NCBI GenBank assembly: GCA_963693365.1
Contig: CAVNZM010000012.1
Span: 7,266,889 to 7,330,888 of the forward strand
Length of the DNA: 64,000 nt
Source: Amoebidium appalachense
Lineage: Eukaryota > Protista > Ichthyosporea
Direction of reading: 5' to 3'
The notes beneath the pieces are model-generated. The model did not search any database, was not told the DNA's origin, and worked only from the letters and a program-made list of their open reading frames with translations. Below are positions 40,301 to 42,475 of the stretch, piece after piece. Every line of letters begins with the position of its first letter. Position 1 is the first letter of the stretch. A program made the position numbers and the translations under genes.

Positions 40301-42475
40301 ATGCAACATCAGCCATGTGCACAGTATGCGTCATAAGCAGAGCCCATCCTCAGGGAGGACCCAAGTCATCAATTGCGTCTGAGTTTCGACCCCTTAGCCC
40401 GCGTATATACGACACTCCAACTCAGACAGCAGCATCAACTGAGCTTGGGCGGGTCAACCCGTCTTGATCAAAGACGAGCAGGGTTGCTTATGCAAGCAAG
40501 GTGAGCAAAACGGTGAAGATGTGTGTGCAAACTAATGCAGTGCAGCGAAAAATGTGTATGTGCTTACAGATGCACGACACAGAGCAACCATGCCCGGTTG
40601 CATGGAAGTAAAGGGGGCAGAGAGTGTGTGTGTGTGTGTGAACGGGTGAGAGGGATGAGGAGAGAGAGGACGGGGGGTAAGGGGGGAGGGGGGGAGGGGG
40701 GGGGGGGGGGGGGGGGGGAGGGGGGAGGGGGAAGGGGGGGGGGGGGGGGGGGGCGGCGGCGGATGGGTTGAGTATGAGATGTCTGCATTTGTGTATCGCA
40801 CTAAAGTTTCTCTTTTCTGAGCCATCCCTGTAACTTGTATTTTCCAATATGTGCAACGTATGGGAGTCCTGGTGGTAGTGCTTTTCTGTGTGTTAGTGCG
40901 CTTCTGGTTCGAATTTGATAATGCCGACCGACCATGAGCACTCCAAAACACACAAACACACACACTTGCACAAGGACAAAAAAAAAAAAAAAAAAAAAAA
41001 AAAAGGAGATGCTGGGTAGGTCTGGAAAGCGCCGGCACAGAGATAATGGGACGTTTAACAAACGTAGCCCCTCCCCCCCCCCCCCCCCCCCCCCCCCCCC
41101 CCCCCCGCCTTCCCACAATCCACCCACCATCACACACACACACACACACACACACACACACACACACACACACACACACACATACCCCCCTCCCCCCTCC
41201 CCATCCTCCCCCCAAACACACACACTGCCCCAACCCACCTTTTCCTCGACAATATGCACCGACCCATAAGTACCAGTCCCCAGTTTCTTCCCTATGCGAT
41301 ATTTGTGCCGGAACGGAATTCCCGCCGGCTCAGGGACCGTGCGTGCTTCGGCCCGAGCGTCTGCAACCATTGGCTGAGAGAGCACCAAACCGAGCGCAGT
41401 TGCACCAATTACGGCAGCCGCATATTGACTATTTTTGGCGTGACCTGATATGTGTACACGTGATTAGTATACCATGCATAGATCACGGAGACATCCTACT
41501 GTAATGTTTGATGTGCACATGCTCATCCGCGTCCTAAGTGTTTGTGTATTGTACTTCGGCGTGGAAAAGCAGAGCAGAATCATGGTGTGTGTGTGTGTGT
41601 GTGTGTGTGTGTGTGTGTGTGTGTGTGCGCGCGCGCGCACGCACGTGTGTATGAGTGTGTGTGTGTGGGCGCACATGTGTGTGTGCGCGCACGTGTGTGT
41701 GTGAGTGTGTGTGTGGACGCACATGAGCTTGTGTGCTTATTATCGTGTGTGCATGCGCGTGCACGTGTGTGGGGTGTCGAAGTGCACGTGTGTGACTGTG
41801 CAGCAGCTGCGTGTGTGCAACAACCCCGGCTTGAAAATGGTATGACGTATATGTATGTGCGCTGGCCTGTATATTTTGTCACATTATGATTTCATTTTTG
41901 TACACTGCCTGTGTAGTGTGTGCGGGTGTCAGGTTATCGCACGAGTCATTCTCTCTTTAAAAAATTCTTTTGGGCCCTCTACCATTTACCCCGTTGACAG
42001 TGCTTCCTTCCTTCCTTCTGTCTATCTTCGTCCCCTCCATTTTTTCTTTTTCGATTTCTTGCTCTTTCCCTACCACCCCATTCTGTTCTTTCTTTTGCAT
42101 CGATTTCCTTGTTACCTTTCGTTTTTCTTTCTTTTTCTTCCTTCTTTCTTGTTTTGGCCGGGAAGGGTGGGGGGAGGGGGGGGAGAGGAAAGGAGGGAGG
42201 GATAATGAGATATGAAATGCAACATCATGTTACTATGAATGTAACAGTGGGTTCACGTGACACAAACCCAACCGCGCACCTGCGCTCAGCCGGAGCTCGT
42301 GTGCATCGGACCTCAACCGCCACGAAATATGATTGGGTCTTGGTTGCCAAGGAGGGACTGGGGTACCCCAAGAATGCGCCTGGAAAGAGTTAACGGTACG
42401 CTCACGGCCCAGATTTCCAGTGCAGGAAGTGAGTGGTCTTCGTGCAAGCTGGCGGAGAAAAACGGAAGAAGCCAT
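28367..42475 (-). CDS. CaMK-family kinase fused to a calmodulin-like four-EF-hand domain (CDPK/CCaMK-like), with a putative mitochondrial presequence and TM segment; about 610 aa
   Basis: Exons (minus): 42475-42280, 41444-41239, 40127-40050, 39484-39412, 38493-38427, 37271-37176, 35842-35731, 34948-34828, 34241-34103, 32883-32802, ~32316-32182, 31305-31180, 30599-30459, 29779-29675, 29023-28939, 28431-28367; all phases join. An alternative end is read-through to the stop at 28898. Kinase motifs: [55 protein letters not shown] loops: [48 protein letters not shown]. Confidence 0.88.
31701..32026 (-). mobile_element. Structured poly(C)-associated repeat, subfamily A, 5'-truncated
   Basis: Highly similar to 40218-40612 and carries the double compensatory change GGCCC/GGGCC. 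Confidence 0.9.
33228..33615 (-). mobile_element. Structured repeat, subfamily A, with a ~14-bp internal deletion
   Basis: Near-identical to 40218-40612 but lacks AAGACGAGCAGGGT at ~33480. Flanked by G-runs on both sides. Confidence 0.92.
35843..36545. repeat. ~700-bp (TG)n/(CA)n microsatellite directly abutting a splice acceptor
   Basis: Nearly pure dinucleotide repeat with TAC interruptions, ending in CACACAG|GGAGAAC on the minus strand. Confidence 0.95.
37644..37892 (-). mobile_element. Structured repeat, subfamily B
   Basis: Shares ATAAGCAGAGCCCATCCTCAGGG, GAGTTTCGACC, CCAACTCAGA and CCCGTCTTGATCA.AGACGAGCAGGGTTGCTTATGCA with subfamily A. Stems differ compensatorily. Confidence 0.88.
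40218..40612 (-). mobile_element. Structured repeat, subfamily A reference copy (structured core 40333-40491)
   Basis: Near-identical to 33228-33612 and 55260-55654. Its 3' end is TTCAAAA followed by a C-run. Confidence 0.92.

What the first reader, a model, noticed from the sequence alone, without database searches (positions are those of the whole stretch)
40333..40491. Candidate permuted or split hammerhead ribozyme in a covarying structured RNA repeat
Seen in the sequence (minus-strand reading of copies at 31701, 37644, 40218 and 55260; plus-strand at 15738): (1) a closing stem ATAAGCA..CCC/GGG..TGCTTAT; (2) a hairpin CTCGTCTT-loop-AAGACG(G/A)G with palindromic apex TGATCA or TGGCCA; (3) a long stem GTCTGAGT/ACTCAGAC, which is ACAGTATCTGAGT/ACTCGGGTACTGT in subfamily B and TATGGGT/ACCCATG in C, extended by CCCAAG/CTTGGG or CCCATGT/ACGTGGG; (4) a crossing helix that covaries four ways: GACCC/GGGTC, GGCCC/GGGCC, GACCTA/TAGGTC, GACTC/GAGTC; (5) a second palindrome CGTATATACG, CGTTAACG or CTCGAG. 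G-U pairs fix the strand. The conserved unpaired motifs are GTT-GG, C-GAAA-C and CC-CTGAGGA-TG (ATGATGA in C). Established: these match the hammerhead core (NUH, GAAA, CUGANGA), in the form typical of Penelope-like-element minimal hammerheads. Stem III (GAGT/ACTC), stem I (GGAG/CTCC or GGG/CCC) and stem II (the crossing helix, or alternatively GGCTC/GGGTC) can all be drawn. However, the strands are connected in an order that fits none of types I-III. Inference: the two halves of the core sit at opposite ends of one long helix, so the core would assemble only in a dimer, tandem or circular RNA, or through a sharp bend. That would be a new hammerhead topology and could explain why single intronic copies are tolerated. 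Activity is unproven.
Basis: partly seen in the sequence, partly recalled or inferred. Interest (0 to 1): 0.92.

Follow-up and report, generated by a model that had tools for sequence, protein, structure and literature searches.

The report
Split-core hammerhead in Penelope-like retroelements
A repeated mobile DNA element here carries every part of a hammerhead self-cutting RNA in a rearranged, split order that also sits in published Naiad retroelements reported to lack the standard form, and it would likely cut only when two copies come together.

Summary
[quoted passage not shown] On a four-copy alignment, 11 of 41 pairs change on both sides. The strand order S-G-C is the non-circular hammerhead permutation published in 2023, so that part is known. 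What I did not find in print is that the CUGANGA block is split: its stem II strand lies about 100 nt upstream, and two helices sit between A9 and G10.1. Read by eye in the Craig 2021 supplement, the same split architecture with unrelated stem sequences lies in the 3' UTR of 10 Naiad Penelope-like consensus records, which that paper says lack canonical hammerheads. Rough geometry excludes an active fold within one molecule with all helices formed, and two palindromic loops suggest head-to-tail dimers. Cleavage, dimerisation, expression and the autonomous partner are all untested.

The parts
40219..40616 (-). Copy A40 of the non-coding repeat, 5'-truncated, fixed 3' end GCATTCAAA followed by poly-C; lies in sense inside an intron of a kinase-like gene
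40481..40491 (-). Closing helix P0, 5' strand (ATAAGCA and CCC)
40458..40478 (-). Inserted hairpin with self-complementary apex TGATCA (TGGCCA in subfamily C)
40451..40455 (-). Stem II strand beginning with G10.1 (GACCC), displaced upstream of the cleavage block
40444..40449 (-). Linking helix d, 5' strand (equivalent of the stem I-II interaction helix of type-SGC ribozymes)
   Evidence: comparison
40434..40442 (-). k-turn bulged strand: C-stem TCA, bulge GTT, G1b at 40436, A2b, 3b
   Evidence: definition
40420..40427 (-). Stem III strand ending in U16.1
40418..40419 (-). Predicted cleavage site, after H17 = U (GUU|G)
   Evidence: analogy with hammerhead numbering; not shown experimentally
40415..40418 (-). 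Stem I strand after the cut (GGAG)
40402..40411 (-). Second palindrome CGTATATACG in the stem I to stem II linker
40384..40392 (-). Stem II strand ending in C11.1 (GGGTC) plus G12 A13 A14 A15.1
40377..40384 (-). Stem III strand starting with A15.1
40360..40371 (-). k-turn non-bulged strand (G2n, A1n, TGA) and helix d 3' strand
40347..40357 (-). Stem I strand CTCC plus core CUGAGGA (C3 at 40353)
40333..40345 (-). Closing helix P0, 3' strand (GGG and TGCTTAT), starting one base after A9
55260..55715 (-). Longest A copy (456 nt; ribozyme 55374-55533, one extra T in stem III)
55713..55857 (-). 5'-truncated A copy joined head-to-tail to the longest copy (partial tandem, pLTR-like)
33227..33615 (-). 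A copy with 14 nt of P0 and the first hairpin deleted
31701..32026 (-). Diverged A copy, stem II GGCCCT/GGGGCC
37644..38131 (-). Subfamily B copy (ribozyme 37730-37882), stem II GACCTA/TAGGTC, 13-bp stem III, k-turn with A.G at 3b.3n
15718..15950 (+). Subfamily C copy (ribozyme 15734-15888), stem II GACTCG/TGAGTC, A instead of C at core position 3
55060..55198 (-). 5'-truncated B copy next to the A tandem in the same poly-C tract
6045..6077 (+). 33-nt 3' tip of an A copy between two poly-C runs

Best explanation
The repeat is likely a non-autonomous Penelope-like retroelement, and its RNA carries a rearranged hammerhead core that would likely cleave after GUU only when the head of one copy docks on the tail of another. 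Shown in sequence: 5' to 3' the order is closing strand, hairpin, stem II strand (G10.1), helix d, k-turn, stem III strand, H17, stem I strand, palindromic linker, stem II strand (C11.1), GAAA, stem III strand, k-turn, helix d, stem I strand, CUGANGA, closing strand. Inferred: A9 and G10.1 meet at a four-way junction formed with the closing helix and the hairpin. One RNA folds into a kinked rod with the cut site and GAAA at the head and CUGANGA at the tail; stems I and II can close within one molecule only in a bent geometry where II is not stacked on III, which would be inactive. Two copies head-to-tail would build two normal cores near a two-fold axis, helped by the self-complementary loops. 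Single copies in host introns would then be spared, while multimeric or concentrated element transcripts would be cut to unit length for the partner reverse transcriptase (last step speculative).
For: Core and three stems in 6 of 6 near-full copies, C3 in 5 of 6. Stem II always starts G10.1-C11.1 and has both-sided changes at 4 of 6 pairs; stem I at 1 of 3; stem III at 3 of 8. k-turn (3-nt bulge, G.A, A.G) in 6 of 6 with 16 nt on the shorter arm strand to the core, 15-16 nt from G10.1 to -1b and 11 nt from -1n to stem I. Same split order, read by eye, in Naiad consensus 3' UTRs from PMC8557442 File S5: three Acropora records, Naiad-2_Movir, Naiad_Plae, Naiad_EuTe, two Octopus records, one record near part 8 (header not seen, ctenophore by file order) and Naiad_Esco with an imperfect stem II. 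Their stem II pairs are unrelated in sequence (GGCTCC/GGAGCC, GGGGA/TCCCC, GGCCCC/GGGGCC, GACGCC/GGCGTC, GACACC/GGTGTC, GGCCCA/TGGGCC), and the closing helix starts 0-2 nt after A9 in the Acropora, Movir-2, Plae, EuTe and part-8 records. Naiad-2_Movir has the same TGGCCA loop as subfamily C; Naiad_Esco has the TGATC loop. In Naiad_EuTe head and tail are joined by a 15-bp helix with one bulged base, which cannot fold back (by eye). Geometry: an active fold in one molecule leaves a gap of 42 A or more against a 13 A linker; a closed inactive monomer and a two-fold dimer (helices 19-22 A apart) both fit. The palindrome change TGATCA to TGGCCA swaps two adjacent bases that cannot pair within one strand. 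Element anatomy (fixed 3' end, variable 5' truncation, poly-C flanks, partial tandem, no RT motif) matches PLE descriptions.
Against: No cleavage, dimer or expression data. Eckert et al. state that no known hammerhead alignment has more than 1-2 nt between CUGAnGA and its stems, so catalysis across a junction at A9-G10.1 has no precedent that I found. Copy C has A3 opposite G8, A55 has an insertion in stem III and A33 lacks half a hairpin, so several copies may be dead. Stem I is only 3-4 bp. A local hairpin CCUC/GAGG can sequester the core in the predicted minimum-energy fold. An invariant GGCTC two bases after A9 also pairs with the C11.1 strand for 4-7 bp in all six copies. The geometry is a stick model with assumed rise and angle; a short-armed form like the octopus one comes close to closing in one molecule (17-25 A against 20 A). 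Palindromic apex loops are absent from the Acropora, Plae, EuTe and Octopus records. Depth shows no step at the cut site. No autonomous element or RT motif is in the window. Poly-C targeting is described for Chlamys, not Naiad, and I saw no split form in the Chlamys passages shown. The Naiad comparison is by eye and not a census.
Confidence: 0.6

Rival explanations
1. Same split core, but active within one molecule after partial melting of helix d or with protein help; the palindromes serve packaging or template pairing rather than catalysis.
For: Published type-SGC ribozymes have the same crossing helices and cleave during transcription; the authors note the same unexplained distance between the interaction helix and stem III. 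Short-armed Naiad forms nearly close in the stick model. With helix d open, about 8 nt per strand would be free.
Against: Helix d covaries and the d/k-turn/III duplex is worth about -25 to -29 kcal/mol in A copies; gap of 42 A or more with helices formed; Naiad_EuTe has a nearly straight rod.
Confidence: 0.14
2. A conformational switch: the active form is an ordinary type-SGC hammerhead using GGCUC (two bases after A9) as stem II, and the 5' segment (closing strand, GACCC, helix d strand) is an anti-ribozyme lock.
For: GGCTC is invariant and pairs 4-7 bp with every C11.1 strand variant in the window; a 5-bp helix joining the other sides of stems I and II can be drawn in A, B and, shifted by one base, C. 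It needs no new core architecture. Intact SGC and CSG forms are seen by eye in other Naiad records.
Against: These pairs are rich in G-U and the variants are transitions that G or U partners tolerate anyway. In the Acropora, Movir-2, EuTe and Octopus records the bases after A9 do not pair with the C11.1 strand, while the upstream strand pairs perfectly. It would cost most of a -57 kcal/mol fold.
Confidence: 0.08
3. A hammerhead-derived fold that no longer cleaves and is kept as the recognition or dimerisation signal for the partner reverse transcriptase.
For: Copy C has A3; the hairpin and closing region are nearly invariant in sequence, as for a protein site; no depth step at the cut site; copies sit in sense in introns.
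Against: CUGANGA, GAAA, NUH and A15.1-U16.1 are kept across ten Naiad records and this family while all stems change, which fits catalytic constraint better than protein binding.
Confidence: 0.15
4. A chance motif collection in a SINE-like repeat of a poly-C-targeting LINE.
For: No autonomous PLE seen; an RNase H ORF of another retroelement lies in the window; Rfam gives no match.
Against: Shuffle controls, covariation and the matching architecture in Naiad 3' UTRs.
Confidence: 0.03

Closest known systems
Type-SGC, -CSG and -GCS non-circularly permuted hammerhead ribozymes (Eckert et al. 2023, PMC10085705; abstract, introduction and sections 7, 13-18 read, supplements not read)
   Same: Reversed cyclic order of blocks (cut site, then GAAA, then CUGANGA), crossing stems, a helix joining the far sides of stems I and II, full core consensus.
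   Different: [quoted passage not shown]
Naiad and Chlamys Penelope-like elements (Craig et al. 2021, PMC8557442; passages, section 10, supplement parts 1, 2, 12, 19, 25 and term searches read)
   Same: Fixed 3' end, 5' truncation, partial tandems, microsatellite targets ((C)n in Chlamys), non-autonomous derivatives; the same split ribozyme architecture in 10 Naiad records by eye.
   Different: The paper reports no canonical hammerhead in Naiads and flags only 'HHR_core' or 'HHR_half_core'; no element from this lineage is listed; the window's element has no ORF, and its target is Chlamys-like while its RNA motif is Naiad-like.
Minimal type I hammerheads of canonical PLEs and animal retrozymes that cleave as dimers (Lunse 2017, title seen in a reference list only; bioRxiv 10.64898/2026.07.22.740005, abstract and passages)
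   Same: PLE context, position near the 3' end, palindromes, likely need for two copies.
   Different: Those have canonical order and dimerise through a short palindromic stem III; here stem III is long and the two halves of the core are separated by a kinked rod.
Standard k-turn (Huang and Lilley 2016, PMC5061560, passages read)
   Same: 3-nt bulge followed by G.A and A.G, flanked by two helices; A.G at 3b.3n in B and C is the best Mg2+-folding pair.
   Different: Built into a hammerhead; A copies have U.U or C.U at 3b.3n; folding and L7Ae-family binding untested.
Pseudoknot-containing hammerhead (PMC11300833, passages read)
   Same: Extra helix, and a pseudoknot helix coaxial with stem III.
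   Different: A9 remains contiguous with G10.1 and the block order is not reversed.

Membership tests
Hammerhead ribozyme | CUGANGA core with C3-G8 | tested here: met
   5 of 6 near-full copies; copy C has A3
Hammerhead ribozyme | GAAA, NUH and A15.1-U16.1 | tested here: met
   6 of 6
Hammerhead ribozyme | Stems I, II (G10.1-C11.1) and III with covariation | tested here: met
   stem I only 3-4 bp with one both-sided change
Hammerhead ribozyme | A9 within 2 nt of G10.1 | tested here: not met
   The covarying stem II strand lies about 100 nt upstream; only the weaker GGCTC strand meets this
Hammerhead ribozyme | Site-specific self-cleavage after H17 | not testable with these tools
   needs in vitro assay or raw RNA reads
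Hammerhead types I, II, III | Block order CGS, GSC or SCG | tested here: not met
   order is S, G, C; Rfam has 0 matches at E up to 10 over 40220-40615
Type-SGC hammerhead | Block order S, G, C and a helix joining the far sides of stems I and II | tested here: met
   helix d
Type-SGC hammerhead | Uninterrupted block C | tested here: inconclusive
   not met with the covarying strand; formally met with GGCTC after a 2-nt insertion
Standard k-turn | 3-nt bulge, G.A, A.G, paired C-stem | tested here: met
   6 of 6 copies
Standard k-turn | Ion- or L7Ae-induced kink | not testable with these tools
   needs FRET, gel shift or structure
Non-autonomous Penelope-like element | Fixed 3' end, variable 5' truncation, partial tandem, microsatellite target, no ORF | tested here: met
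Non-autonomous Penelope-like element | 3' end shared with an autonomous RT-EN element of the same genome | not testable with these tools
   no genome held; no RT motif in the window
Naiad clade (as opposed to Chlamys) | RT phylogeny, N-terminal GIY-YIG with CCHH | not testable with these tools
   no protein in the element; RNA motif Naiad-like by eye, target Chlamys-like
HDV-like ribozyme | Nested double pseudoknot P1, P2, P3, P1.1, P4 order (recalled) | tested here: not met
   helix order does not nest that way (inspection); no Rfam match

The most novel reading that the evidence does not exclude
A fourth way to open the hammerhead: a non-circularly permuted ribozyme whose catalytic strand is split at A9-G10.1 by a four-way junction and which is an obligate head-to-tail dimer. 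It is the missing ribozyme of many Naiad Penelope-like elements from ctenophores to octopus and of their relatives in a unicellular holozoan, and the rest of the clade uses the SGC and CSG permutations so far known only from metagenomic data.
Probability: 0.5. Interest if true: 0.93.

Novelty: new variant of a known kind. Interest (0 to 1): 0.85.

Why it matters
It would overturn the working assumption that the CUGANGA block of hammerheads cannot be interrupted, and it supplies a short RNA with an exact predicted cut site to test this. It would also answer an open point from Craig et al. 2021, that Naiad elements proliferate without canonical hammerheads: they appear to carry permuted ones that standard descriptors miss. 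A ribozyme active only as a dimer would be a natural sensor of multimeric element transcripts that spares host pre-mRNAs, and a k-turn inside it offers a handle for control by a host protein.

Tried and rejected
Rfam over the whole window (197 matches at E up to 5, 150 shown, none a hammerhead; mostly low-complexity miRNA-like matches) and over 40220-40615 (0 matches). No whole genome is held. A metagenome scan with a GAAA-to-core pattern gave 118 loci; none extends over the element by nhmmer and 0 of 118 match the descriptor, so all were dropped as chance. Viral contigs gave 0 hits for two patterns. Prokaryote genomes gave 0, then 2 hits limited to the 22-nt pattern. Sequencing runs: 20 of 24 listed rows hold part of the stretch, no RNA holder listed (two rows only guessed as RNA), so expression is untested. 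Read-laying on the subfamily C copy gave no result, so whether A at core position 3 is private to that copy stays open. A protein search with a kinase-side exon found nothing. Six RT/endonuclease motif patterns gave 1 hit, just after a stop codon, judged chance. Earlier findings of this scan: nothing. Not-in-print searches; the library lacks most subscription papers, Lunse 2017 and Weinberg 2015 were not held, and the supplements of Eckert 2023 were not read and may bear on novelty. Naiad 3' ends seen whole without such a motif by eye: Naiad_Dcar (incomplete), Naiad_Ppla, Naiad_Adux, Naiad-1_Skow. My first idea, that the k-turn lets one molecule fold into the active shape, was rejected on arm lengths. 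HDV-like, hairpin and twister readings were rejected by inspection of helix order and motifs (recalled definitions).
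Full report
Observation. The 159-nt stretch 40333-40491 (minus strand) is as described. BLAST and nhmmer find six near-full copies (40333-40491, 55374-55533, 33342-33479, 31811-31971, 37730-37882 on minus; 15734-15888 on plus) and several truncated ones. They form three subfamilies: A-B 79%, A-C 60%, B-C 63% identity over about 170 columns. A descriptor for the order stem II strand, stem III strand, H, stem I strand, stem II strand, GAAA, stem III strand, stem I strand, core finds exactly these six (five with C3), 0 strict and 6 relaxed matches in 100 shuffled windows, and 0 of 118 control loci. 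RNAalifold predicts the crossing helix by itself. On 4 of the 6 copies the full structure has 95.1% of 162 cells paired and 11 of 41 pairs changed on both sides, against 28-46% paired in slid registers.

The carrier. The ribozyme-like part lies about 115 nt from a fixed 3' end (GCATTCAAA in A and B). 5' ends vary, and most copies have poly-C on both sides. At 55260-55857 a 145-nt 3' fragment precedes a 456-nt unit, a partial tandem. The unit has no long ORF and the window has no credible RT motif. Contigs of three DNA runs lay 10,882, 8,709 and 4,859 pieces on copy A40 and a fourth lays 12, so it is a large family, though depth is no copy number. Copy A40 sits in sense in an intron of a kinase-like gene. 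One host exon has a single database hit, 67% identical, labelled Ihof in EukProt; I recall this as Ichthyophonus hoferi, so the host is likely an ichthyosporean. Fixed 3' ends, 5' truncation, partial tandems, (C)n targets and non-autonomous derivatives are described for Chlamys and Naiad Penelope-like elements (PMC8557442).

What is known. Eckert et al. 2023 (PMC10085705) divide the hammerhead into blocks C, G and S, and validated the non-circular orders SGC and CSG and one GCS, all from metatranscriptomes, metagenomes or one bacterium. They assume block C cannot be interrupted, because no alignment shows more than 1-2 nt between CUGAnGA and its stems. The window's RNA has the order S, G, C and a helix (d) joining the far sides of stems I and II, as in type SGC. 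It differs in that the covarying stem II strand lies upstream of block S, and A9 is followed by a closing helix that leads, through a hairpin, back to G10.1.

A k-turn. Between helix d and stem III all six copies have a paired C-stem, a 3-nt bulge (GTT, AGT, GTT), G.A and A.G. The 3b.3n pair is U.U or C.U in A and A.G in B and C. Spacing is conserved: 16 nt on the shorter strand from the first G.A to the core, 15-16 nt from G10.1 to -1b, and 11 nt from -1n to stem I. This is the standard k-turn with a 50 degree included angle, and A.G is its best Mg2+-folding pair (PMC5061560).

Which strand is stem II. Two strands can pair with the C11.1 strand: the upstream GACCC-type strand (5-6 pairs, mostly Watson-Crick, changing in step) and an invariant GGCTC two bases after A9 (4-7 pairs with G-U). 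The window alone cannot decide. The supplement of Craig et al. can. Reading File S5 by eye (term searches and parts 12, 19, 25), I found the same order (closing strand, hairpin, stem II strand, helix d, stem III, H, stem I, stem II, GAAA, stem III, d, stem I, CUGANGA, closing strand) in the 3' region of 10 records: three Acropora, Naiad-2_Movir, Naiad_Plae, Naiad_EuTe, two Octopus, Naiad_Esco (stem II imperfect) and one record near part 8 whose header I did not see. Most names come from the header that follows a record and the table order. The table lists 54 Naiad records; I saw only the passages that the searches showed, and four 3' ends seen whole had no such motif. In these records the upstream strand pairs perfectly with unrelated sequences (one Acropora record has one mismatch), and in the Acropora, Movir-2, EuTe and Octopus records the bases after A9 do not pair with the C11.1 strand. 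Naiad-2_Movir has the TGGCCA hairpin loop of subfamily C. Other Naiad records show intact-block forms: CSG in three nematode-region records and SGC in records near parts 17 and 19. The paper says Naiads lack canonical hammerheads and only flags core or half-core strings. I saw no split form in the Chlamys passages shown.

Mechanism. In hammerhead structures stem II or its pseudoknot helix stacks coaxially on stem III (recalled; for the pseudoknot form). With a 16-bp arm and an 8-9-bp return arm, a stick model leaves 42 A or more between the return arm and the far end of stem II, against a reach of 6-13 A, at any angle. A closed monomer in which stem II stacks on the return arm and GAA ties the arm ends does fit but lacks the II-III stack. 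A two-fold dimer fits with helices 19-22 A apart and both cores near the axis. The two loops are self-complementary in every subfamily (TGATCA or TGGCCA; TATATA, GTTAAC, CTCGAG), and the TGATCA to TGGCCA change affects adjacent bases that can pair only between molecules. Predicted homodimers are 11-14 kcal/mol more stable than two monomers (pseudoknots not modelled). Naiad_EuTe has a nearly straight 15-bp rod between head and tail. I therefore favour head-to-tail dimers with two split cores (0.6). This would spare single intronic copies and cut multimeric element RNA; that biological role is inference.

Against. Nothing here shows cleavage or expression; no RNA holder was listed. Copy C has A3, and whether that is private could not be determined. 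A55 and A33 have lesions. Stem I is short, and a CCUC/GAGG hairpin competes with the core. Genome-wide variation in four DNA runs avoids the core but not significantly: 0 of 20 variable positions among 10 core bases, and 4 of 6 ribozyme positions unpaired, P=0.054. There is no depth step at the cut site. Short-armed Naiad forms may close in one molecule, and several lack palindromic loops. The window's 55260-55857 tandem lacks a second stem II strand and so does not test the model. Database scans for relatives gave only chance hits.

Verdict. The structure is real and is a hammerhead by every sequence criterion except contiguity of A9 and G10.1. The reversed order is known; the split core, the built-in k-turn and the link to Naiad elements were not found in nine literature searches of an incomplete library. 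New variant of a known kind, interest 0.85.

Noticed in passing
PMC8557442 File S5, passages near parts 14, 15, 17, 19: Other Naiad consensus 3' ends appear by eye to carry intact-block non-circular hammerheads: type CSG in three nematode-region records and type SGC in spider- and ostracod-region records. Eckert 2023 knew CSG from only two metagenomic sequences.
   Followed up: partly
window 25180-26874 (+), related fragment 21256-21594 (+): 565-codon open frame with an RNase H domain (PF00075, E 5e-10) after a long P/K/T-rich region, probably part of another retroelement; no ribozyme match nearby.
   Followed up: no
window 38430-41463 (-): Exons of a protein-kinase-like gene; copy A40 lies in sense in one intron and B37 lies in the same orientation just past the last exon seen.
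   Followed up: partly
window 52106-52330 (-): Exon whose only hit is an EukProt protein labelled Ihof (67%, PF25766); resembles RPAP1 by recall. Used to place the host near ichthyosporeans.
   Followed up: partly
window 40355 (loose ends): 25-30 contigs in each of two runs stop at this place and continue in poly-G on the plus strand, suggesting 5' truncation favoured at the CCC of stem I through microhomology with the poly-C target.
   Followed up: no
window 33227-33760 and 55060-55857 (-): A and B copies are stacked next to each other in the same poly-C tracts, so earlier insertions seem to provide targets for later ones.
   Followed up: partly
whole window: 164 runs of 10 or more C or G, 3,778 bp in runs of 8 or more, plus long (CA)n tracts in introns.
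   Followed up: no
window 46903-47870 (+): Two adjacent open frames of about 160 codons without Pfam match, with coiled-coil-like composition.
   Followed up: no
arm lengths of the element: Return arm, stem II, core and stem III arm add up to about 33-34 bp, close to three helical turns, so a triangular trimer with three k-turns is also geometrically possible.
   Followed up: no
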